Source: Patescibacteria group bacterium (GTDB taxonomy: Bacteria; Patescibacteriota; Patescibacteriia; UM-FILTER-42-10). From it: DNA of 64,000 nt. Positions 5,115-49,540 of the stretch are shown in pieces (within the stretch, counting starts at the first letter, position 1; the number at the start of each line of letters is the position of its first letter). Under the pieces are notes generated by a model. It did no database searches, was not told the DNA's origin, and saw nothing but the letters and a program-made list of their open reading frames with translations. The position numbers and the translations under genes were made by a program. The DNA lies in NCBI GenBank assembly GCA_041664365.1, contig JBAYKW010000004.1, positions 11,013 through 75,012 on the forward strand. Reading direction: 5' to 3'.

Positions 5115-6860
5115 TTATTTTTTATCTTTTGACTGATGATTTAATAAAAATAAAATTGCAAAAGTCAGGATTACACCAAATGAAATTACAATATAAAAGA
5201 TTAATTTATTGCCGTCATCCTCTGTGCCCGGTGCGTTGACTGGAGTATTGTTTTCAGCATCCCTTAAAAATAGGTCCTCAGTCATTTCGCTATAAGCCAT
5301 GGACCTGCTCATCTTTGTCAAAAAATATTTTCCTTCCGCCGGTTTAATCCAAGGATTGCCCTGATCATTTACTGCTAACTGCTCAATTTCAGATTTTTTT
5401 ATCCAGCCGGCATACTCTGTTGTAAAGTTAGACAACTCCTTCTTATTTTTATCAAAGACATACAGGACAATAGATGCCGTATTACTATAATACGGTCTAA
5501 TTTGTGAAATATTTGAACTGACATATACCAGTTCATTCCCGGATACCTCCTCTAATAATGACGAGTTAAAGTGAGCGAGAAAAACCATATCATTATTTAA
5601 CACTAGTGCTTCACCTAGATTAACCTTATTATAATCATCCTTTATTGCATCAGCAGAACGGACAGCATCATAAATTACATATTCATCTACTGTAGCATTA
5701 ATAGAACGACTGTCATATGCACCCGAACCGATATAAAGAGTGTCATTTACATATGGACTGCTATCAATCAAGTCCTGACTTACAGCAGTAAGTGGCACAT
5801 AAGTTCCATTAAGGTAAAAGGAAGGGGTAGCACCTTTTTCCCAAGATAATGCCACCTGTTGCCAGTTGTTTAGATCTAATTCAAAATCAGCAGATGTCCA
5901 TAAATTTGTTTCATTCGTAACATCATTATGTGTTGTTAGGGTATAAGAATAATTATCTGCCGAATTTGCGGGATTTAAATCTAAACGAAAAGGCAAGGCC
6001 CCATCATCATTACTCCTGACAGTCGCAATATTGGCTATTTTATATTCTCCCGCCGTCCAATTAGGCTTAAACCAAGTTTCAATAGTGCCGGCCTCACTCT
6101 TAATTGCATTTTCCGCCGGTATAGTTAGCTTATCATTATTACCAATCCTGATTCCTTTATCAACCTTTCCTGAAGGATATTTATTGCCGATGCTATTTTC
6201 TAAAGATCCGGTTACGGAAGATATCTTCATCGGATAAACCAAGTTCTCTGTTTCAAAAGAAATAGCAACTGGTACGGCATGACCCGTTTTTAATTGCTGT
6301 GAAACGCTGTCCCAAGCTAAACTCTCCGTATTGATTTTCATCGCTACAAAAAACCATCCGTTTTCAATATAGCTGTTTAGTATGAAGCTTGCAGCTTCCG
6401 GATAAGAATAACCATTATCATTTAGCCACGTGGTTAGCGCATCTTTATCAGTTGCAGAAAGCGTCGTTACTTCATAATATTCAATCTGTTTTGTTTCTAT
6501 TACCGTAACTGAATTCTGTTCAGTACCGCTTAATGGCATAACATCATAAACCATATTGTCTTCTAATCTGTAGTTGATTCTGGTCAATTCCTCCAGAGAA
6601 GTAAACAATTCGTCGGACCCTTTGGCAATAGTCGGTTTTGCAGGAGTCGGTATCACCCAGCCGAATTTTTCCGCGTCACCCTGAAAAGTAATCGAAACTA
6701 CCATTGTCTCCACCCCGCCGTCATAAAAAATAACCGCTTTCTGGGCAGTTTCCTGTACCCAATAATCGGGCGGCGGCATGATCATTCCGTCTGCCATTGT
6801 TATTTGAGGTAAGAGCAAAGACATTAGAGCTATCGTATATATTATTTTTTTTGGTGACAT
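5115..6860 (-). CDS. Hypothetical exported protein with a C-terminal TM anchor and a LamG/concanavalin-like region
   Basis: Signal peptide MSPKKIIYTIALMSLLLPQITMA, C-terminal hydrophobic anchor, internal ..WQQVALSWEKGATPSFYLNG.. lectin-like stretch. Confidence 0.4.
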   Translation of the reverse strand: MSPKKIIYTIALMSLLLPQITMADGMIMPPPDYWVQETAQKAVIFYDGGVETMVVSITFQGDAEKFGWVIPTPAKPTIAKGSDELFTSLEELTRINYRLEDNMVYDVMPLSGTEQNSVTVIETKQIEYYEVTTLSATDKDALTTWLNDNGYSYPEAASFILNSYIENGWFFVAMKINTESLAWDSVSQQLKTGHAVPVAISFETENLVYPMKISSVTGSLENSIGNKYPSGKVDKGIRIGNNDKLTIPAENAIKSEAGTIETWFKPNWTAGEYKIANIATVRSNDDGALPFRLDLNPANSADNYSYTLTTHNDVTNETNLWTSADFELDLNNWQQVALSWEKGATPSFYLNGTYVPLTAVSQDLIDSSPYVNDTLYIGSGAYDSRSINATVDEYVIYDAVRSADAIKDDYNKVNLGEALVLNNDMVFLAHFNSSLLEEVSGNELVYVSSNISQIRPYYSNTASIVLYVFDKNKKELSNFTTEYAGWIKKSEIEQLAVNDQGNPWIKPAEGKYFLTKMSRSMAYSEMTEDLFLRDAENNTPVNAPGTEDDGNKLIFYIVISFGVILTFAILFLLNHQSKDKK

Positions 6861-7183: not shown

Positions 7184-8584
7184 TCACTTTTTTAAATTCA
7201 ATTTAATATGCAGATCATCCAACTGCTGTTCGCTGACCGCTGATGGCGAATTCATGAGCAGATCGCGGTTGTCGCCCGTCTTCGGAAATGCCACAACCTC
7301 TCGGACATTGGTTCGGTTAAGCAATATCATTAACAGCCGGTCAATTCCCGGCGCGATTCCGCCATGTGGCGGAACGCCGTATTGAAAAGCTTCCAGCAAG
7401 TGCCCGAATTGTTCGTGTGCCTCTTCTTTGGAAATACCAACTAATTCCAAAATCTTTTCCTGTATTTTATGATCATAAATCCTTAAACTGCCCCCACCGA
7501 CTTCATATCCGTTTAACACTAAGTCATGCTGCCAAGAACGGGCCTTGAGCGGTTCATATTCCAGTAACGGCAAATCCTCAGTGCGCGGAGCGGTAAAGAT
7601 ATGATGAAACGGCACATGCTTTCCGTCTTTCAGTTCCGGTTCAAAATATGGCCAGTCAACGATAAAGCAAAATGCCAGCTCGTTCGGATCATTTTTATTC
7701 ATCCGGATATCCGGTTTATCATTTCCATATTTTTCCATCGCTTCCTGATACGTGATACGGGGCCATGGAGAAAAGGTAATCTTTTTTTCCGGAAATAATT
7801 CCGTAACCAGCTTAGTGAACATTCTTTCCGTCAGATTCAGTATCTCATCCTGGCTCATAAATGACATTTCCATATCCAACTGATAGAACTGGTCCGGTGC
7901 ACGGTCAGAACGGGAATCTTCATCTCTAAAACACGGTGCAATCTGAAAATATTTTTCAAATCCAGCCACCATTAACAGCTGTTTATACTGCTGTGGTGAT
8001 TGTGGCAGGGCATAAAATTTACCCGGGTATACTCGGGAAGGAACCAGATAATCCCTTGCACCTTCAGGAGTAGATTTACCCATAATCGGTGTCTCTATTT
8101 CAATAAACCCTTCCGTATGTAAAAAATCCCTGATGTACTTATTAAATTTGGAGCGCATAATTACCATCTTTTTATTTGAATCTCTGCGCAGATCCAAGTA
8201 CCGGTATTTATAACGAATCTCTTCCGCCACTTCTTCTTTATCATTTTCCACTATTTCAAATGGAGGAGTCTTAGACTCGGTAAGAATGTTTAATTCCAGC
8301 GCTTCTATTTCAACATTACCGGTCGCCATGTTTTTGTTGACCAGTTTCTCCGGGCGTTCATTAACCTGCCCGATAATTTCCACCACAAATTCCGGTCGAA
8401 GTTCCTTCGCTTTGTTTACCAATTCTTCATTGCCCGGTAGAAAAACCACCTGCACGATTCCCGATACGTCGCGCAAATCTACAAAGACCATTTTACCCAT
8501 TCGGCGCGCAGACTGAACCCAACCGTTAAGTTTTACTTTCTTGCTGATATGACCGGCGGTTTCAGTAATTAAAATGCGTTTCAT
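7184..8584 (-). CDS. aspS: Aspartyl-tRNA synthetase, short form without the GAD insertion
   Basis: Class II motifs: QSPQQYKQLLMVAGFEKYFQIAPCFRDEDSRSDRAPDQFYQLDME and GGGSLRI..GIAPGIDRL; N-terminal OB fold. Confidence 0.85.
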   Translation of the reverse strand: MKRILITETAGHISKKVKLNGWVQSARRMGKMVFVDLRDVSGIVQVVFLPGNEELVNKAKELRPEFVVEIIGQVNERPEKLVNKNMATGNVEIEALELNILTESKTPPFEIVENDKEEVAEEIRYKYRYLDLRRDSNKKMVIMRSKFNKYIRDFLHTEGFIEIETPIMGKSTPEGARDYLVPSRVYPGKFYALPQSPQQYKQLLMVAGFEKYFQIAPCFRDEDSRSDRAPDQFYQLDMEMSFMSQDEILNLTERMFTKLVTELFPEKKITFSPWPRITYQEAMEKYGNDKPDIRMNKNDPNELAFCFIVDWPYFEPELKDGKHVPFHHIFTAPRTEDLPLLEYEPLKARSWQHDLVLNGYEVGGGSLRIYDHKIQEKILELVGISKEEAHEQFGHLLEAFQYGVPPHGGIAPGIDRLLMILLNRTNVREVVAFPKTGDNRDLLMNSPSAVSEQQLDDLHIKLNLKK

Positions 8585-11216: not shown

Positions 11217-11313
11217 TATTTTCTCGTTAGTCAGTAGCTTCAGTATATCAGATATATGTGAAAATAAAAAAACCGCCGTTTGATTCCGAGGAACCGCGGG
11301 CGGAACGAAAGAG

Positions 11314-13326
11314 CTACTTGATTACGACCAGTTTCCTGATCAGATAGGAGCCATTGGTTGACCTAGCCACCGCGAAGTAGACTCCACTGGGCACCTTTCT
11401 GCCGTCCGGAGCAGTACCGCACCAGGTAACCGTTGTTTGTCCTGCTGAAGGACTGGTGTTCCAGATTGTACGCCCGGCCACGTCGACGATACTGATTTCG
11501 CTCAGTGCGAGACTCGTAGCCCAAGTCATTTGCACCACGGAACTAGTGACGCTCGGCGAAAGTCTGAACCAGACACCGCTATCCAGATCGTCTTCCGGCA
11601 CCGCAACTGCGCTGCCGACGTTGAAGTAAAGGTTGCCAGTGTAAATCAGTCCTGTGTAGTCGCCGTATCCACCGGCTGTCGTGAGTTTGACTCTGATAAC
11701 ACAGGGTGCCACTCCGATGCTGTTGACCGGGATCGTCAATGCTGTGGTATTACCATTCAATGTGTAAACCGTACTGTCACGGCTCGTTTCGGTGAGATGA
11801 TACACCATTGCCTGGGTGAATTCACCAAACTCCCCGTTCGACTGGCCAAACAGACGGATTACTCCCCCGTCCAAAACGGAGTTGGTACTGCCGAAAGTGG
11901 TTTCGAGCGTTCCATTACCGTCCTGATCGACGCCGAACCGACATCCCGGACCATTGCTGATGTAGCACTGGCCGAACCCCAACGCGTTCAAGTAGTCCTC
12001 CTCGGTGAGATGCGGCATTTCCACAACGGTGAAGAGCTTGCCGAGCGCGTTGTTGTTGGCAACGATCTGCAGAGCCTGGTTGTATTCCAGAGTGTAGGAA
12101 TACGCACCGTGGTTGTCCGTCCCGGCATAAGCATTTACCCTGCGGAACGGGTTCAGGTTCTGCTGTTGGACCAGGTCAAGCCTCGCCATGTTTAAATCGT
12201 GCCGGCCGAAGATGGTCAGATCCGCAATCCAGTAAGGATACGGGTTGATGTTGTCCTGATTCACTACCAGGTCACCTGTGGTTGTCAGCTTGTTGAGCAC
12301 CTGGAAACCCAGGAAGTCTTGATCCGACAGAGCCAGATCAATGTTGGTGGAATTCCACTGAACCACCTGGTCATTCTGCGGAACGAAAGTCGGGCTGAAA
12401 GGATGAGAGGCAATACGGACTCCTCCTCGGGCTGAGACACTATCCGCGAACTGCTGATGCGTCCAAAGCTGGAAGCTCTGGTTCTCGCTGGCAATCTGCG
12501 AAGGCGTTCTCAAACACCGGTTGGTGATGTGGTGGATTTCGTTGTCCACCGCATTGTTGACCGTATTATCATCCGTCGACCCTTCACTGCCGGCGATCAC
12601 CAGCAATTCACTATCCGACATGTCCGCCGCACGTTCTGCCATGAATCCGCATTCAAAGTCAGAGAACTCATAGCCGTGATCCGTCCACCAGTAGATGTCC
12701 AGATCCACCGCCTTTGAAGCCGAGGGAATCAGACCCCAGGAACCACCCCACTCGCCGACACTATCCGTGAAGAAAGAGTGGGCGTGGGTATTCGACGAGA
12801 ACTGGTTCGAGTACAGCGGCAGCTGTTCACCCAGAATCACCTGGAAGAACTGGTTCTTCTGAACCAAATGCAAGCAGAGTTCATCCCGGAACCGTACGTA
12901 CCAGCGGAACTCCATCCGGTCACCGATTGTAAATCCGGCAAAGCGCGGATCGTTCAGGTTGATCAAGGAATGCGCTTCATAAATATCATCGGTGATTTCG
13001 AACGCGCACGACGACCAAACCGGGGTCTGGTCATAGACGAACCAAACACCCGCACTGTTACGGGCGTAAAGGATCATCTCTTCCAGCCACAGCCGGTTGA
13101 TGGCACCCTGGTCCTTGAACACGTAGACCGTGTGGATAATGTTATTGATCGCGGTGCGATCACGAACGATCCAGGGCATATCCCCCGCCTGGTCCTTACC
13201 GGATGTGTTGGGATGTTTCAGTCCCGAGTCAAAAGGAGTGTACTCCTTCACCTCCACCAGTTCGATTGCCTGCAGATTGGCACTCCAGAATAAGAATGCC
13301 ACGAGAATCAGAATAATGCGCTTCAT
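11314..13326 (-). CDS. Large secreted protein with a T9SS/FlgD-Ig-like C-terminal sorting domain; GC-rich, probably foreign
   Basis: SD AGGGGA lies before the second ATG (MKRIILILVAFLFWSANLQA signal peptide). The last about 60 aa (ISIVDVAGRTIWN..TVTWCGTAPDGRKVPSGVYFAVARS..KLVVIK) match the T9SS CTD pattern. The gene is about 55% GC in a 35-40% GC contig. Confidence 0.6.
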   Translation of the reverse strand: MKRIILILVAFLFWSANLQAIELVEVKEYTPFDSGLKHPNTSGKDQAGDMPWIVRDRTAINNIIHTVYVFKDQGAINRLWLEEMILYARNSAGVWFVYDQTPVWSSCAFEITDDIYEAHSLINLNDPRFAGFTIGDRMEFRWYVRFRDELCLHLVQKNQFFQVILGEQLPLYSNQFSSNTHAHSFFTDSVGEWGGSWGLIPSASKAVDLDIYWWTDHGYEFSDFECGFMAERAADMSDSELLVIAGSEGSTDDNTVNNAVDNEIHHITNRCLRTPSQIASENQSFQLWTHQQFADSVSARGGVRIASHPFSPTFVPQNDQVVQWNSTNIDLALSDQDFLGFQVLNKLTTTGDLVVNQDNINPYPYWIADLTIFGRHDLNMARLDLVQQQNLNPFRRVNAYAGTDNHGAYSYTLEYNQALQIVANNNALGKLFTVVEMPHLTEEDYLNALGFGQCYISNGPGCRFGVDQDGNGTLETTFGSTNSVLDGGVIRLFGQSNGEFGEFTQAMVYHLTETSRDSTVYTLNGNTTALTIPVNSIGVAPCVIRVKLTTAGGYGDYTGLIYTGNLYFNVGSAVAVPEDDLDSGVWFRLSPSVTSSVVQMTWATSLALSEISIVDVAGRTIWNTSPSAGQTTVTWCGTAPDGRKVPSGVYFAVARSTNGSYLIRKLVVIK

Positions 13327-13415
13327 TTCGCTACTTCCCCTCATTTTGGGCGTTTTGTCAATGACCGTGACTCAAATCTGAGTAACCTTAGTATGTCAAA
13401 CAGAGATTTATTGTC

Positions 13416-13444
13416 AAACAAAAAACCACCAATTTATGGTGGCC
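13416..13444 (-). terminator. Rho-independent terminator downstream of the acidic protein gene
   Basis: ccacca-attta-tggtgg hairpin followed by a T-run on the minus strand. Confidence 0.5.
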
Positions 13445-13459
13445 ATTTTGCTTTGATTT

Positions 13460-13777
13460 CTACTCTCCGACTGATAATCTTCCTTCAATACTTGCTAATA
13501 CTTTGTCTAAAGCCGTGAGAGTTTCAGCATCCAAATCATCTCTCATATCTTCAAATAGCAGTTTAAATTCACTAAATTTATCCAGATCAAAATCATTTTC
13601 TCCCGAGATCTGCTGATCACATTTATCTAAGCATTTAATTGCCCCCGCATAATCACCGTCGGATAAAGCACTAATTGCTAAGCCCAGTTCATAGTTAACA
13701 TCCGAGATTTCGAACTGTCCGTCACCGAACTGATCATCTGGCCCTGACACATCTGGCATTGTTGGATCACCCATCAT
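13460..13777 (-). CDS. Small acidic hypothetical protein
   Basis: 105 aa, Asp/Glu-rich, no motif. Confidence 0.35.
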   Translation of the reverse strand: MMGDPTMPDVSGPDDQFGDGQFEISDVNYELGLAISALSDGDYAGAIKCLDKCDQQISGENDFDLDKFSEFKLLFEDMRDDLDAETLTALDKVLASIEGRLSVGE

Positions 13778-13820
13778 GGAATTGTATAATCAATATTTAA
13801 TTCTATCGATATACTTTTTA

Positions 13821-13896
13821 TGGTGCGCCGTGAGGGATTCGGACCCCCGACCATCAGCTTAAAAGGCTGCTGCTCTACCAACTGAGCTAACGGCGC
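13821..13896 (-). tRNA. tRNA-Lys (anticodon UUU)
   Basis: Manual cloverleaf: perfect 7-bp acceptor gcgccgt/acggcgc, D arm gctc-agttggta-gagc, anticodon loop cTTTtaa, T arm ggggg-tccgaat-ccctc, encoded CCA. Confidence 0.85.
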
Positions 13897-14149
13897 GTAT
13901 TGGTAAACAAATAATACTATGTATTCAATTTGTCAGCGGATTCACCAACTGCCTGTCCGCCATAGCATCGCTGGAAGCGATGCGTAGGAGGAAGCTAACG
14001 GCGCATGAATAACTACCTGATATTAGCAAAAAGCGCTTTAAAAAGCAAGGCTTTAAGACTAGGTTAATAAAAGGTGGAAAAAATGTAGAAAAAGAGGCTT
14101 GTTTACGCAGGATTATAGTGATAAGATGATATGGCTAAATCAAACAAAT

Positions 14150-46980: not shown

Positions 46981-47269
46981 TACAGGGCCCCCAAAAAATC
47001 GCGAAGCGGTTTTTGGGAAAGCATCAAACATTGGAAAATATTACCGAGCAAATCAGGAGCACACCCGGGCAGTTGCGTAGCAACTGCATCGGGGAGCACG
47101 GATTTGCGAGGAAAGGGGCACAGACCCGAAACCAAAAACAACCAAGCTTGCTTGGTTGTGACAAGTGAAGGGTCTGATGACCCGTGGTCGGGGTGAGAGG
47201 ATTTGCCCGCCCAAGGCGGGTCCGCCTCTGGCGGAAACCTCAAGAGTGTTTTCTCTTCAAAAATCTTAC
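46981..47269 (-). ncRNA. GC-rich structured non-coding block downstream of tRNA-Pro; identity unresolved
   Basis: About 55% GC, multiple stable hairpins (e.g. cagttgc-gta-gcaactg), no credible ORF (the 155-aa track ORF is low-complexity Pro/Ser/Gly), bounded by a terminator. Confidence 0.3.
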
Positions 47270-47346
47270 TGGTCGGGGTGGGGAGATTTGAACTCCCGAT
47301 CTCATGCACCCCGTGCATGCGCCTTAAGCCACTAGGCCACACCCCG
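47270..47346 (-). tRNA. tRNA-Pro (anticodon GGG) with an unusual C33
   Basis: Manual cloverleaf: acceptor cggggtg/caccccg, D arm gcct-agtggctta-aggc, anticodon stem catgc/gcatg with loop aCGGGGt, T arm gggag-ttcaaat-ctccc, encoded CCA. Confidence 0.6.
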
Positions 47347-47573
47347 TTAGAAATTATTAATATTAACAAAACAGAAGCCCTACCCTTAGGACTAGATAAT
47401 CGCACTGGCTCCGGATAGGAACGTGGGTACCCGCAACTATATTCCACGGAACATAGCGATCTAGGGTTCCCGATGCGATAATCCTGTAGAACCGGATTAA
47501 ACTAGAACCTAATAGTAGAGCAATTTAAGTATACTTTTTGAAATGTGCTTTGGCAAGTCAAAAATATGTTGTA

Positions 47574-47609
47574 ATAAAAAAAGGCCCGTTGCGTTTGCAA
47601 ACGAGGCCT
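47574..47609 (-). terminator. Rho-independent terminator ending the small-ORF island transcript
   Basis: Minus strand aggcctcgtttgcaaacgcaacgggcct followed by ttttttt; 5 nt after the stop of the 65-aa ORF. Confidence 0.5.
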
Positions 47610-47613
47610 TAAG

Positions 47614-47811
47614 TTAGGTCAAATTGGTGCTGTGGTTTTCCCATTCAATTTTGAGGAAGACCATCCCGCATCCCGTATCAGCCAGTTCATACCGGCAATG
47701 ATTCGGTTCCGGATTCACACCCAAAGAACGATCTGTGTCACCAACCACCCTGGTGCTGATTTCCTGTCCGGAGCTTCCGTCCGGAATAGGTTCAGTGCTG
47801 TTGCTTGTCAC
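47614..47811 (-). CDS. Small hypothetical protein (65 aa, GTG start) in the GC-rich island
   Basis: Strong SD AAGGAGG 7 nt before GTG; product VTSNSTEPIPDGSSGQEISTRVVGDTDRSLGVNPEPNHCRYELADTGCGMVFLKIEWENHSTNLT. Confidence 0.45.
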   Translation of the reverse strand: MTSNSTEPIPDGSSGQEISTRVVGDTDRSLGVNPEPNHCRYELADTGCGMVFLKIEWENHSTNLT

Positions 47812-47833
47812 AAAACACCTCCTTGGAAAGAAA

Positions 47834-48019
47834 TCAGTCTTCTTTCTCCTGCTCGTCCTCCGTAGGAGTGTTCGGCAAGCCGGGAATCCCGACAAAATAA
47901 GGCCGATACTTTCTCCTTGGAGTGCTGGTTACAGAGCCATGAAAAGTGGGTTTGATTTCTGCTTGCTTATCGCGGAAATCCGACTCATTCCCATTAGAGG
48001 CATCTTTGTTCTTCGGCAT
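47834..48019 (-). CDS. Small hypothetical Pro/charged-rich protein (61 aa) in the GC-rich island
   Basis: SD GGAGG 8 nt before ATG; MPKNKDASNGNESDFRDKQAEIKPTFHGSVTSTPRRKYRPYFVGIPGLPNTPTEDEQEKED. Confidence 0.5.
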   Translation of the reverse strand: MPKNKDASNGNESDFRDKQAEIKPTFHGSVTSTPRRKYRPYFVGIPGLPNTPTEDEQEKED

Positions 48020-48290
48020 TTCTTACTCCTCCACTTGGTTTAGGGTTGACCGCTAGTGACCCGGGTATAATGTACAATAATCAAAAAAACCATCTTGCCG
48101 ATGGTCTGGATAAATATATTTTAGAAATACACTAATCAGCCATCAGCTCAATGGGTAAAATAACCAAAAAAGAAACTCCAATTGCTGGAAGCAACGGTTT
48201 TTCGGTTATCTGAGCTGAGGTTAATTGAATATTTCATGGGATTATTGGTATGAATAATAACATATCGATTTTTTGTGTCAAATATGGCTG

Positions 48291-48378
48291 AGTAATCCGT
48301 AACTGGTAGACTCGTAATTCGTAAACTGAACTCAGAACTTATTATTTATTACAAATTACTATTTACCAATTACCAAAT
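48291..48378. repeat. Heptad-repeat palindromic intergenic element (copy C)
   Basis: Minus strand GGTAATTGGTAAATAGTAATTTGTAATAA....TTTACGAATTACGAGTCTACCAGTTACGGATTAC. Confidence 0.55.
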
Positions 48379-48433
48379 AAAAAAAGCCCTTGATTACAAG
48401 AATCTCAGGCTGAAAGAGCGATTTGGAAACGGA

Positions 48434-48847
48434 CTACATGTCCATGTGTCCGCCGGGATGATAATCGGGAGTCGCATACTGGACATCACCGATTTCCACA
48501 AAATAGACAATGGGTTTGTCGGGGCAACAGCAGGTGTAGGGGGTCAGCTCGCAGTCAACACACCGAGACTCGCCGTCATTAATGGTCACACCATTGAGGC
48601 AAACCAGCCCAGTGCGCAGTTCTCTCGCCGGACCCCAATTGGGCTCCACCGTGTATCCCCCGCCGGTCATGTCGAACTCGCCAGCGAACTCGATCACATA
48701 AACCTCTGGCATATCCGGGCAACAGCAGTTATTGGGATGCAGACCGCATCCCGCGCACTGGTACTGACCGGTCTCGGTCAGTATAACGCCGTCCGGACAC
48801 CGGATGTCCTGTACCTGGTCAAAGACAGTGGCAGCTTGCGAATCCAT
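48434..48847 (-). CDS. Cys-rich small protein (137 aa) with two tandem copies of a novel C-x2-C-x6-CCC-PD module
   Basis: SD GGAAAGGA before ATG (MDSQ..); modules ..YQCAGCGLHPNNCCCPDMPEVYVIEF.. and ..SRCVDCELTPYTCCCPDKPIVYFVEI..; 11 Cys. Confidence 0.6.
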   Translation of the reverse strand: MDSQAATVFDQVQDIRCPDGVILTETGQYQCAGCGLHPNNCCCPDMPEVYVIEFAGEFDMTGGGYTVEPNWGPARELRTGLVCLNGVTINDGESRCVDCELTPYTCCCPDKPIVYFVEIGDVQYATPDYHPGGHMDM

Positions 48848-48896
48848 GCTGTTCCTTTCCGGTTTGAAACGGTTCTTGTGGTTACATAACGGCAAC

Positions 48897-49064
48897 CTAG
48901 GCAAACAGATCGTTCAGAGTGTCAATACCCGGACAGTGGCAGACGCATAAATCGATCCGCGTCCGGCAGTCCACACAGCGGTACACGCCGTCATCCTCAA
49001 GACGGGCACGACCCTGGCTTCCGTCCTTCTTCTGGAAATCAATTTCCGGCAACTTCTGAGTCAT
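48897..49064 (-). CDS. Cys-rich small protein (55 aa) with a C-x2-C-x6-C-x-C-x-C module
   Basis: SD GGAGG 7 nt before ATG; ATGA stop-start overlap with the upstream ORF; MTQKLPEIDFQKKDGSQGRARLEDDGVYRCVDCRTRIDLCVCHCPGIDTLNDLFA. Confidence 0.55.
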   Translation of the reverse strand: MTQKLPEIDFQKKDGSQGRARLEDDGVYRCVDCRTRIDLCVCHCPGIDTLNDLFA

Positions 49065-49276
49065 CACACATCCTCCATGGAGTTACCAACATCATCTTGG
49101 CTGGTGATTCTCTGACGGGAATCGACTCGACAAACGCAATTGGTCAGAGAGAGTTTGCAGTGTTTACACCTCCATCTCTGGGTGGCAGGATCGAAGTAAG
49201 CCCCAAACGGCGCGTCTGGCTGATGCCCTCCGCTAGAAGCAGAGGGCACGAGGTAATTATGTCCTCTGTAGACCAT
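49064..49276 (-). CDS. Cys-rich small protein (70 aa from the internal ATG) with a C-x2-C-x6-C-x-C module
   Basis: SD-like GGGAAAAGGA before ATG (MVYRGHNY..); ..TQRWRCKHCKLSLTNCVCRVDS..; the track ORF starts at an upstream GTG (49303). Confidence 0.5.
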   Translation of the reverse strand: MVYRGHNYLVPSASSGGHQPDAPFGAYFDPATQRWRCKHCKLSLTNCVCRVDSRQRITSQDDVGNSMEDV

Positions 49277-49540
49277 TCCTTTTCCCTTCAGGTTGAAGTT
49301 CACATCCTGAACTGCGGATATTGTGAATATTGCATCGGGAAATCATTATTCCCATTATCTTAATGTACAAAATCGAGTTTTATGGCTCGTAAAGATACTT
49401 AATAAGCACCCTTACCAACCATCAAACAAAGAACCGGCGAGATGAGGCCGGTTGTAAAATTTTAATACCAAACCTCTCATCAATGGCAGATGATAATCGT
49501 AATCAGTTTAATAATTAGGTTTGATTTGTAGTTCATGGAT

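What the first reader, a model, noticed from the sequence alone, without database searches (positions are those of the whole stretch)
11280..13380. GC-rich (about 55%) islet with a T9SS/FlgD-Ig-type sorting-domain protein in an AT-rich genome
The 11314-13326 gene is about 15-20 points higher in GC than everything around it, which is why the plus strand shows many antisense ORFs. Its last about 60 aa match the T9SS C-terminal sorting domain pattern. Its N-terminus is a classic signal peptide. It lies on the 3' side of tRNA-Lys, separated by one small acidic gene and a terminator. The composition and a domain tied to an outer-membrane secretion system not expected here argue for horizontal acquisition or a chimeric contig.
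Basis: partly seen in the sequence, partly recalled or inferred. Interest (0 to 1): 0.6.

Follow-up and report, generated by a model that had tools for sequence, protein, structure and literature searches.

The report
Acquired secreted-hydrolase gene in a Patescibacterium
A 2.2-kb GC-rich stretch in an AT-rich candidate-phyla-radiation (Patescibacteria) genome is a real, horizontally acquired single-gene cassette for an exported metal-dependent hydrolase with a type IX-secretion-style tail; it is a clean case of gene transfer, not an assembly error and not a new kind of system.

Summary
The gene at 11314-13326 (-) has 53.7% GC and 66.8% GC3. The rest of the window has 39.4% GC and a mean GC3 of 37.5%. 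The GC steps fall at the gene ends, and its tetranucleotide signature is the strongest outlier in the window.

It is not a chimera. An 83%-identical ortholog sits at the same place in a collinear, separately assembled Patescibacteria contig. Two close relatives (L015, L014) have the same neighbours but lack the gene. This defines a cassette of about 2.15 kb with its own promoter and terminator, inserted at an intergenic terminator.

The protein has five parts: a Sec signal peptide, a beta-sandwich, a PHP-type metallohydrolase core (CehA/McbA-like, all metal ligands invariant), a second beta-sandwich, and a C-terminal domain (CTD). The CTD scores below every curated cut-off in this protein. Homology supports it as a T9SS type A / FlgD-Ig domain: homologs pass the cut-offs, and family profiles hit solved T9SS CTDs.

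The closest relatives that carry a label are on Patescibacteria contigs, and wherever the flanks could be measured the host is GC-rich (56-61%) and the gene matches it. The donor was therefore probably another CPR bacterium, not a Bacteroidota. Purifying selection (dN/dS 0.15) shows the gene is in use. The substrate is unknown, and T9SS absence in the host could not be tested. Interest is modest.

The parts
11314..13326 (-). CDS of 670 aa (stop codon 11314-11316): exported multidomain hydrolase, the only gene in the GC-rich islet
   Evidence: ORF. 100% identical to NCBI protein WCW66_03400, 670 aa. GC 0.537 and GC3 0.668. dN/dS 0.146 against the ortholog.
13267..13326 (-). Sec-type signal peptide, aa 1-20 (MKRIILILVAFLFWSANLQA)
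   Evidence: Direct reading of the sequence. An N-terminal helix in the AF2 model. No signal-peptide predictor was available.
12829..13209 (-). N-terminal beta-sandwich domain (aa ~40-166), specific to the close subfamily
   Evidence: AF2 model with all-beta elements at 45-166 and pLDDT 75-98. Conserved motifs YPNT..GDMPW and FRWY.RFRD.
11947..12819 (-). PHP-type (CehA/McbA-like) metallohydrolase core, aa ~170-460, with ligands H181 H183 H217 E248 H265 H308 D404 H406
   Evidence: These residues are invariant across 30 homologs. The family profile hits the PHP proteins TM0559 (2anu, 1.2e-8), YcdX (1m65, 5.8e-6) and PolX PHP (2w9m, 1.5e-3). NF038032 is hit by 30 of 30 members, but this protein scores 37.8 bits, below the cut-off of 80.
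11602..11946 (-). Second beta-sandwich domain, aa ~461-575
   Evidence: AF2 model with beta strands at 461-568 and pLDDT >90.
11317..11574 (-). C-terminal T9SS type A / FlgD-Ig-like domain, aa ~585-670. The GxY and K-x4-K motifs are kept. The PNP motif has degenerated to SPSV.
   Evidence: Sub-threshold HMM hits. Homologs are above threshold. CTD profile A3 hits solved T9SS CTDs: 8glk 7.8e-7, mirolase 1.1e-5, PorZ 1.2e-5, RgpB 7e-5. Seven beta strands in the model. dN/dS 0.22.
13390..13417 (-). The gene's own sigma-70-type promoter (TTGACA, 16 nt, TG-CATACT)
   Evidence: 10 of 12 consensus matches. Conserved in the ortholog. Homologs in other genomes also have a TTGAC-type promoter directly after an upstream terminator.
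11266..11303 (-). Terminator-like hairpin plus T7 run that closes the cassette
   Evidence: Read from the sequence and conserved in the ortholog. The scanning tool did not list it because its loop is longer than 8 nt.
13424..13444 (-). Terminator of the upstream acidic ORF. It marks the left edge of the insertion and corresponds to the single terminator of the empty site.
11267..13437 (.). Inserted cassette bounded by an imperfect 18-nt direct repeat (11267-11284 and 13420-13437, 14 of 18 matches, start-to-start spacing 2153 bp)
   Evidence: Repeat D10. Alignment of filled sites (window, L013) against the empty site (L015).
13460..13896 (-). Context: tRNA-Lys(UUU) at 13821-13896 and the 105-aa acidic ORF at 13460-13777, both host DNA shared with relatives that lack the cassette

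Best explanation
The islet is a horizontally acquired, self-contained transcription unit of one gene: promoter, Shine-Dalgarno sequence, coding sequence and terminator, about 2.15 kb in all. It was inserted at an intergenic terminator between a small acidic ORF (downstream of tRNA-Lys) and a DUF5667 gene. The host is an AT-rich Patescibacteria (CPR) lineage.

The donor was most likely a GC-rich Patescibacterium of the Kerfeldbacteria type. The family is native-looking there.

The product is exported by the Sec pathway (inferred from the signal peptide). Outside the cell it acts as a metal-dependent hydrolase, most likely a phosphoesterase. Catalysis would use a PHP-type trinuclear metal site flanked by two beta-sandwich domains. 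This is inferred from the fully conserved ligand set; the substrate is unknown. A plausible role is scavenging phosphate or nucleotides, or processing host or environmental polymers, for an organism with little biosynthetic capacity.

The C-terminal domain is homologous to T9SS type A sorting domains. In a cell that presumably has no outer membrane or T9SS, it most likely serves as a surface-binding or stabilising Ig-like module rather than as a secretion signal (inferred).
For: Composition. GC, GC3 and tetranucleotide signature are outliers confined to the gene.

The junctions are real. A syntenic ortholog with 83% amino-acid identity lies in a collinear contig of a different organism and shows the same GC jump.

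Empty sites. L015 (AsnRS 96% identical) and L014 (89%) keep DnaB, DUF5667, DUF2238 and AsnRS but lack the gene. L015 has one terminator where the filled sites have two. Five further contigs, from four more distant relatives (L018 and L019 look like the same sequence), also lack it.

Direction of transfer. In GC-rich hosts the homolog matches its flanks: GC3 z-scores are 0.6-1.3 and tetranucleotide correlations 0.79-0.90. In the window and L001 the z-scores are about 4-5 and the correlation is about 0. In a neighbour-joining tree the window clade is nested among Kerfeldbacteria-type sequences.

The host is a CPR bacterium. NCBI labels say so. There is a DUF5667 neighbour. S5 and L15 are adjacent with no L30 gene between them.

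The gene is in use. dN/dS is 0.146 overall, 0.10 in the PHP core and 0.22 in the CTD, with no indels over 2013 nt.

PHP core. Eight metal-ligand positions are invariant in 30 homologs. The family profile hits TM0559, YcdX and PolX. NF038032 is hit by 30 of 30 members.

CTD.

Autonomous unit. The promoter and terminators are shown.
Against: No integrase, transposase or clear target-site duplication was found. The 18-nt flanking repeat is only 78% identical, and it consists of terminator 3' halves that could resemble each other by convergence.

By flanking genes L013 groups with L015, which lacks the gene. One gain therefore needs either a later precise loss in L015 or exchange of the cassette by homologous recombination.

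Synonymous divergence of the gene (dS 0.64) is lower than that of its neighbours (0.96-1.40). This is unexplained.

The closest sampled relative outside the clade is only 44% identical, so the donor is not identified.

The curated thresholds of both NF038032 and TIGR04183 are missed by this protein.

Enzyme activity, localisation and the absence of T9SS in the host were not tested.
Confidence: 0.78

Rival explanations
1. Assembly chimera: a GC-rich fragment from another organism was joined into an AT-rich contig.
For: There is an abrupt compositional change at both ends. Metagenome assemblies can be chimeric.
Against: The same gene with the same two junctions occurs in a second organism at about 80% DNA identity. 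That contig is collinear over about 20 kb and comes from a different assembly. The boundaries fall at a promoter and a terminator rather than inside genes. The gene has diverged in step with its flanks.
Confidence: 0.02
2. The gene is native and ancestral. Its high GC is kept by gene-specific selection, for example on codon usage or mRNA structure, and the empty sites are deletions.
For: The family exceeds host GC in every locus examined, including the 42%-GC host of L007. Its synonymous divergence is lower than its neighbours', which could reflect constraint on synonymous sites. The flanking direct repeats could mediate precise deletion.
Against: The outgroup L014 and five further contigs from four more distant relatives lack it. 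The tetranucleotide signature correlates at about 0 with the host, not only GC3. The L007 copy sits in an unrelated context. In GC-rich hosts the gene lies within the host's GC3 range.
Confidence: 0.07
3. The gene came directly from a T9SS-bearing diderm (the Fibrobacterota-Chlorobiota-Bacteroidota group or an allied candidate phylum), and the CTD is a decaying relic.
For: The CTD is homologous to true T9SS CTDs. More distant family members have PKD, Laminin_G_3 or Big_5 domains plus strong Por_Secre_tail hits, which is typical of T9SS cargo. The PNP motif has degenerated in the window protein.
Against: Every close relative that carries a taxonomic label is on a Patescibacteria contig, some of them 90-235 kb long. 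The single 'Gammaproteobacteria' label belongs to a contig about 98% identical to a Kerfeldbacteria contig. The window clade is nested among these sequences. The CTD is under purifying selection, dN/dS 0.22.
Confidence: 0.1
4. The host does have a T9SS-like export route, and the CTD is a working secretion or anchoring signal.
For: The CTD is conserved under purifying selection across CPR members.
Against: No T9SS component appears among the genes called around any homolog. No second CTD-bearing ORF was found in the window or in any fetched flank. By established knowledge, T9SS is confined to the Bacteroidota/FCB group and CPR cells lack an outer membrane.
Confidence: 0.03

Closest known systems
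CehA/McbA family metallohydrolase domain (NCBIfam NF038032), a branch of the PHP (polymerase and histidinol phosphatase) superfamily; solved relatives are TM0559 (2anu) and YcdX (1m65)
   Same: The full set of metal ligands is present and invariant: HxH, H, E, H, H and DxH. The profile matches PHP proteins, and all 30 homologs hit NF038032.
   Different: This protein scores 37.8 bits against a cut-off of 80. No Pfam PHP hit appears at E<=1e-3. The core is flanked by two beta-sandwich domains and a CTD, and the protein is exported. The substrate is unknown. Named family members are carbaryl (carbamate ester) hydrolases, and most PHP enzymes are phosphoesterases (from my own knowledge).
T9SS type A C-terminal sorting domain (TIGR04183 / PF18962), e.g. 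the CTDs of RgpB, PorZ, mirolase and F. johnsoniae cargo
   Same: It sits at the extreme C-terminus, is about 85 aa long and has seven beta strands. It keeps the D.GR, GxY and K-x4-K/R motifs. Profile matches to solved CTDs have E-values of 1e-5 to 1e-7. NCBI already names the homologs P0009 and P0010 'T9SS type A sorting domain-containing protein'.
   Different: This protein is below the curated cut-offs. Its PNP motif has been replaced by SPSV. The host phylum is not known to have a T9SS or an outer membrane, so a sorting function is doubtful.
FlgD Ig-like domain (PF13860)
   Same: It is the best single Pfam hit (24.3 bits), and the profile matches FlgD structures at E about 1e-5.
   Different: The score is below the cut-off of 27. 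There is no flagellar context. PF13860 often cross-hits T9SS CTDs.
Small genomic islets or single-gene insertions acquired by horizontal transfer near tRNA genes
   Same: There is a compositional anomaly, presence/absence polymorphism among close relatives, and a location in a variable stretch downstream of tRNA-Lys.
   Different: The insertion is not in the tRNA. No integrase or att duplication of the tRNA 3' end is present. The insertion point is a terminator about 0.4 kb from the tRNA. No phage or plasmid relatives were found.

Membership tests
T9SS type A CTD (TIGR04183 / PF18962) | HMM score at or above the curated cut-off | tested here: not met
   TIGR04183 scores 17.7 against a cut-off of 23. 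PF18962 scores 15.4 against 27. Homologs do pass: P0010 30.5, P0012 27.4, P0021 38.5, P0026 32.2.
T9SS type A CTD (TIGR04183 / PF18962) | Homology to experimentally defined CTDs | tested here: met
   CTD profile A3 against the PDB: 8glk 7.8e-7, mirolase 8qb1 1.1e-5, PorZ 5m11 1.2e-5, 8glj 2.2e-5, RgpB 5hfs 7e-5, PorU 6za2 1.6e-3. All 14 database hits of the profile carry PF18962, PF13860 or both.
T9SS type A CTD (TIGR04183 / PF18962) | Extreme C-terminal beta-sandwich of about 70-100 aa with conserved motifs (PNP; GxY; terminal K-x4-K/R) | tested here: inconclusive
   Position, length and seven strands fit. The GVY and K-LVVI-K motifs are present. PNP has been replaced by SPSV here, although it is present in most relatives.
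T9SS type A CTD (TIGR04183 / PF18962) | N-terminal Sec signal peptide on the same protein | tested here: met
   MKRIILILVAFLFWSANLQA has a basic n-region, a hydrophobic core and an A-x-A-like c-region. This is a direct reading. The AF2 model shows an N-terminal helix. No dedicated predictor was run.
T9SS type A CTD (TIGR04183 / PF18962) | Host encodes the T9SS machinery (SprA/Sov, PorK/L/M/N, PorU, PorV) | not testable with these tools
   Only 64 kb of the genome is available. No such gene appears among the called genes around any homolog. Absence from CPR bacteria is general knowledge and was not tested here.
PHP superfamily / CehA-McbA metallohydrolase (NF038032) | Complete set of metal-binding residues (HxH, H, E, H, H, DxH) | tested here: met
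   H181, H183, H217, E248, H265, H308, D404 and H406 are invariant in 30 homologs. T187 and E192 are at least 90% conserved; D188 is invariant only in the 7-sequence alignment A1.
PHP superfamily / CehA-McbA metallohydrolase (NF038032) | HMM score at or above the curated cut-off | tested here: not met
   NF038032 scores 37.8 bits (E 1.5e-9) against a cut-off of 80. All 30 members hit it at E<=0.01, with a best E-value of 5.9e-22.
PHP superfamily / CehA-McbA metallohydrolase (NF038032) | Sequence homology to solved PHP-fold proteins | tested here: met
   Family profile A2 hits TM0559 (2anu) at 1.2e-8, YcdX (1m65) at 5.8e-6 and PolX PHP (2w9m) at 1.5e-3. The HxH, TDH and GxE motifs are aligned.
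PHP superfamily / CehA-McbA metallohydrolase (NF038032) | Distorted (beta/alpha)7 barrel fold | tested here: inconclusive
PHP superfamily / CehA-McbA metallohydrolase (NF038032) | Metal-dependent (phospho)esterase activity | not testable with these tools
   This needs biochemistry.
Horizontally acquired genomic islet | Atypical composition confined to the element | tested here: met
Horizontally acquired genomic islet | Presence/absence polymorphism at a conserved site in close relatives | tested here: met
   Present in the window and in L013 (the same contig as L001 and L006). Absent in L015 and L014, which have identical neighbours.
Horizontally acquired genomic islet | Mobility genes or clear att/target-site duplication | tested here: not met
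   No integrase or transposase lies in or beside the cassette. There is only an imperfect 18-nt repeat made of terminator halves. No relatives were found in viral, phage or plasmid collections.

The most novel reading that the evidence does not exclude
Patescibacteria keep a T9SS-type C-terminal domain under purifying selection although they have no T9SS or outer membrane. The domain would then have a T9SS-independent job in these cells, for example tethering the enzyme to the CPR cell surface or S-layer, or to the host cell. The enzyme would be an episymbiont scavenging or attack factor that moves between CPR lineages as a self-contained cassette bounded by terminators, recombining at terminator hairpins.
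Probability: 0.2. Interest if true: 0.6.

Novelty: new member of a known kind. Interest (0 to 1): 0.33.

Why it matters
- **Clean HGT example in CPR.** It documents recent gene transfer between CPR lineages of very different base composition, with filled and empty sites both in hand. Such cases are useful for calibrating HGT and amelioration in these poorly studied genomes, and as a warning against discarding such islets as chimeras.
- **An uncharacterised exported enzyme family.** It flags a small family of PHP-type hydrolases found mostly in Patescibacteria. These organisms depend on external nutrients, so the family is a candidate for experimental work.
- **T9SS-type CTDs outside T9SS phyla.** It shows that CTDs of the T9SS type occur and are conserved in a phylum not thought to have the T9SS. 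This bears on how far CTD hits can be read as evidence for that secretion system.

Tried and rejected
- **Exact-protein look-up with the 676-aa form.** It found nothing because the true start is 13326.
- **First AF2 run with 7 sequences.** The catalytic core had pLDDT below 50. A second run with 30 sequences gave pLDDT 87.8.
- **Word-indexed searches.** Searches with the 30-sequence alignment and with the CTD alignment added little taxonomic information.
- **Other CTD-bearing ORFs.** An HMM built from the family's CTDs found none in the window or in the loci fetched up to that point (L001-L012).
- **Synteny of the L007 copy with the window.** There is none.
- **Phage or plasmid vector.** No relatives were found in IMG/VR, INPHARED phages or PLSDB plasmids.
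- **Literature.** No paper in the library links Patescibacteria or CPR bacteria with T9SS CTDs.
- **tRNA-targeted integration.** The junction is at a terminator, not in tRNA-Lys. A 12-nt repeat of the tRNA 5' end (13885-13896 and 13993-14004) is within what chance would give.
- **Rfam families in the other GC-rich patches near tRNA-Pro.** None were found.
Full report
**1. Observation**

The minus-strand ORF at 11314-13344 is the only long ORF in the stretch that has homologs. The true start is ATG 13326. The ortholog has no upstream ATG, and in the window the upstream ATG overlaps the Shine-Dalgarno sequence GGGGAAG. This gives a 670-aa product identical to NCBI protein WCW66_03400.

The gene has 53.7% GC, against 39.4% for the rest of the window. 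Its codon-position values are GC1 0.529, GC2 0.414 and GC3 0.668. The 57 other long ORFs have a mean GC3 of 0.375 with sd 0.077. In 200-bp windows, GC rises from about 0.42-0.44 to 0.55 at about 11300 and falls from about 0.53 to 0.38 at about 13300, that is, at the gene ends.

The tetranucleotide profile of the gene correlates at -0.03 with the window background. The median 2-kb window correlates at 0.92. The islet is the strongest outlier in 64 kb.

The plus-strand "ORFs" inside the gene are the usual artefact of GC-rich DNA.

**2. Not a chimera, but an insertion**

The host is a Patescibacterium. Three lines point to this:
- The NCBI labels of the identical protein and of its ortholog.
- A DUF5667 neighbour.
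- S5 and L15 genes that are adjacent with no L30 gene between them. This is a CPR hallmark by general knowledge.

A second organism (L001, the same contig as L006 and L013) is collinear with the window over about 20 kb at about 80% DNA identity. Its housekeeping proteins are 92-98% identical to the window's. It carries an 83%-identical ortholog at the same position with the same GC jump, 0.541 against 0.405. Two independent occurrences of both junctions exclude misassembly.

I then searched metagenomes with the neighbouring AsnRS and found relatives with the same gene order but without the gene:
- L015 has AsnRS 96% and DnaB 93% identical to the window.
- L014 has AsnRS 89% identical.
- Five more distant contigs that span DnaB to AsnRS (L048, L018, L019, L022, L027; L018 and L019 look like the same sequence) also lack it.

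At the same spot L015 has a single terminator, CCGCCATATCCGGCGGTTTTTTTATTTTCAC. L013 and the window have about 2.15-2.19 kb there, bounded by a terminator-like hairpin on each side. In the window the bounding sequences form an imperfect 18-nt direct repeat at 11267-11284 and 13420-13437, with 14 of 18 matches and a spacing of 2153 bp.

The insert holds four things: a sigma-70-type promoter (TTGACA, 16 nt, TG-CATACT; 13417-13390), a leader with a Shine-Dalgarno sequence, the gene, and its terminator. It is therefore a self-contained transcription unit.

**3. Direction and source of the transfer**

The family is small. The 5.8-billion-protein index holds 8 members. GTDB species representatives give 3 loci. 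An exhaustive HMM search of 1.84 billion cluster representatives gives 34 proteins at E<=1e-30 and 252 at E<=1e-10.

The labelled close relatives are all Patescibacteria:
- Two Kerfeldbacteria proteins, P0006 and P0009. P0009 is on a 90-kb contig.
- Several "Patescibacteria group" proteins, on contigs of up to 235 kb.
- The single "Gammaproteobacteria" label belongs to a contig that is about 98% identical to the Kerfeldbacteria contig, so one of the two labels is wrong.

In the GC-rich hosts (56-61% GC) the homolog looks native. Its GC3 z-scores are 0.6-1.3 for L003, L005, L009 and L011, and its tetranucleotide correlation with its own flanks is 0.79-0.90 across the five GC-rich loci (L002 included). 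L002 has too few flanking ORFs (n=3) for a meaningful z-score. In the window and L001 the z-scores are about 4-5 and the correlation is about 0. The islet correlates at 0.44-0.53 with the flanks of those GC-rich Patescibacteria, best with the Kerfeldbacteria contig L009.

In a neighbour-joining tree the window-plus-ortholog clade is nested among P0004, P0005, P0006 and P0009. Support for the exact sister is weak. A copy in another fairly AT-rich Patescibacterium (L007, 42% GC; gene 52%) lies in an unrelated context, between a holin-like and TSP3-repeat gene on one side and LexA and DinB on the other. This fits repeated movement within the phylum.

No relatives occur in IMG/VR, phage or plasmid collections. 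No mobility gene is nearby.

One complication remains. By the DnaB-side genes L013 groups with L015, while on the AsnRS side the three genomes are about equidistant. The locus is therefore mosaic. A single gain must have been followed either by a precise loss in L015, which the flanking repeats could mediate, or by exchange of the cassette through homologous recombination. The gene's synonymous divergence (dS 0.64; 4-fold JC 0.47) is lower than its neighbours' (dS 0.96-1.40; 4-fold JC 0.6-1.5). That fits later exchange or constraint on GC-rich codons. I could not separate the two.

**4. The protein**

Purifying selection acts on the whole gene. dN/dS is 0.146 overall, 0.10 in the core and 0.22 in the CTD, with no indels over 2013 nt.

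The AF2 model built with 30 homologs has pLDDT 87.8 and pTM 0.79. It shows these parts:
- An N-terminal helix, the signal peptide.
- A beta-sandwich at about residues 45-166.
- An alpha/beta core at about 175-460.
- A second beta-sandwich at 461-570.
- A seven-stranded C-terminal domain at 586-668.

Across the 30 homologs the invariant residues include H181, H183, H217, E248, H265, H308, D404 and H406. This is the PHP-superfamily ligand set (HxH ... H ... E ... H ... H ... DxH) as known from YcdX. That comparison is from my own knowledge. The family profile hits three PHP proteins: TM0559 (2anu, E 1.2e-8), YcdX (1m65, 5.8e-6) and a PolX PHP domain (2w9m, 1.5e-3). The HxH, TDH and GxE motifs align.

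All 30 members hit NCBIfam NF038032, "CehA/McbA family metallohydrolase". The window protein scores 37.8 bits, below the cut-off of 80. No Pfam family covers the core at E<=1e-3. I therefore read the core as a divergent PHP-type metal-dependent hydrolase, most probably a phosphoesterase. The substrate is unknown.

**5. The C-terminal domain**

In the window protein every relevant HMM is below its curated threshold: FlgD_ig 24.3 against 27, PF18962 15.4 against 27, and TIGR04183 17.7 against 23. Homology settles it:
- Relatives pass the thresholds: P0010 30.5, P0012 27.4, P0014 31.4, P0021 38.5, P0022 35.0, P0026 32.2.
- 19 of 30 members hit TIGR04183.
- NCBI already names P0009 and P0010 "T9SS type A sorting domain-containing protein".
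- A profile of 18 family CTDs hits solved T9SS CTDs: F. johnsoniae cargo 8glk 7.8e-7, mirolase 1.1e-5, PorZ 1.2e-5, RgpB 7e-5 and PorU 1.6e-3. It also hits FlgD at about 1e-5.
- All 14 database hits of that profile carry PF18962, PF13860 or both.

The family consensus shows the PNP, D.GR.V, GVY and K-x4-R motifs. The window protein keeps the last three but has SPSV in place of PNP.

No other CTD-bearing ORF was found in the window or in the loci fetched by then. No T9SS gene appears among the genes called around any homolog. Whether the host genome lacks T9SS could not be tested. By general knowledge, CPR cells have no outer membrane and T9SS is confined to Bacteroidota and their allies.

**6. 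How it most likely works**

Shown:
- It is an autonomous cassette of foreign composition inserted at a terminator.
- It is kept under purifying selection in two lineages.
- It encodes a protein with an intact PHP ligand set and a CTD of the T9SS type.

Inferred:
- The protein is exported by Sec.
- It hydrolyses an extracellular phosphoester or ester substrate at a tri-metal site. A plausible purpose is scavenging phosphate or nucleotides, or acting on host polymers.
- The CTD acts as a surface-binding or stabilising Ig-like module rather than as a T9SS signal.

**7. Comparison and novelty**

Functionally the protein works like a secreted PHP/CehA-McbA-type hydrolase with T9SS-cargo architecture. 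By curated thresholds it is not a member of NF038032 or TIGR04183, although it is clearly homologous to both. As a genomic feature it is an ordinary small horizontally acquired islet without mobility genes.

The literature searches found no paper that links CPR bacteria with T9SS CTDs, but the annotation pipelines already label the homologs. I rate it a new member of known kinds.

**8. Verdict**

Horizontal transfer is right and a chimera is wrong. The CTD is real by homology but weak in this protein. The donor was probably a GC-rich CPR bacterium rather than a T9SS-bearing phylum. Interest is about 0.33.

Noticed in passing
window 48400-49300: A second GC-rich islet (GC 0.52-0.60 against 0.39) with three tandem small Cys-rich ORFs on the minus strand: 48434-48904 (156 aa, GC3 0.656), 48897-49067 (56 aa) and 49064-49303 (79 aa). 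They carry CxxC and CCCP motifs and have no Pfam hit. In tetranucleotide terms the 2-kb windows from 47001 to 49500 that cover this islet and the patches in the next item are the second-strongest outlier in the window. This suggests repeated uptake of GC-rich DNA.
   Followed up: partly
window 47000-47200 and 47600-47900: Patches of GC about 0.50-0.55 that look non-coding and flank tRNA-Pro(GGG) at 47270-47346 (-). No Rfam family matches at the gathering threshold or at E<=1, so these may be unannotated structured RNAs.
   Followed up: partly
L002 1-5450 vs L008 4987-10107: A contig labelled Candidatus Kerfeldbacteria (JACQPX010000082) and a contig labelled uncultured Gammaproteobacteria (CAZCGY010000029) are about 97-99% identical over more than 5 kb. 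Both carry tRNA-Ile(UAU). One taxonomic label must be wrong.
   Followed up: partly
L013 5864-6336 / L015 ~7990-8456 vs window ~13426-13448: The relatives L013 and L015 have an extra ORF of about 117 aa (about 470 bp) between the acidic ORF and the insertion point. The window lacks it, so this intergenic stretch is variable beyond the cassette itself.
   Followed up: no
L048 1360-8819: A more distant relative (AsnRS 78% identical) has about 7.4 kb of other genes between DnaB and DUF5667, including a 542-aa ORF with raised GC (about 0.48-0.50). The stretch downstream of DnaB and tRNA-Lys looks like a hot spot for variable cargo.
   Followed up: no
window 13885-13896 and 13993-14004: An exact 12-nt repeat of the 5' end of tRNA-Lys lies 108 bp upstream of the tRNA, next to a 17-nt palindrome-like hairpin at 13956-13992. 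It may be a chance match or a remnant of a tRNA fragment.
   Followed up: no
window 11314-13326 vs L013 6458-8470: The acquired gene has lower synonymous divergence between the two lineages (dS 0.64) than the housekeeping genes around it (0.96-1.40), although its amino-acid divergence is higher. The cause is unexplained: later exchange by recombination or constraint on GC-rich codons.
   Followed up: partly
window 5115-6860: A 581-aa protein with DUF2330 and Laminin_G_3 domains is only 64% identical to its ortholog in the sister genome, while housekeeping genes are 92-98% identical. It appears to be a fast-evolving, likely surface protein.
   Followed up: no
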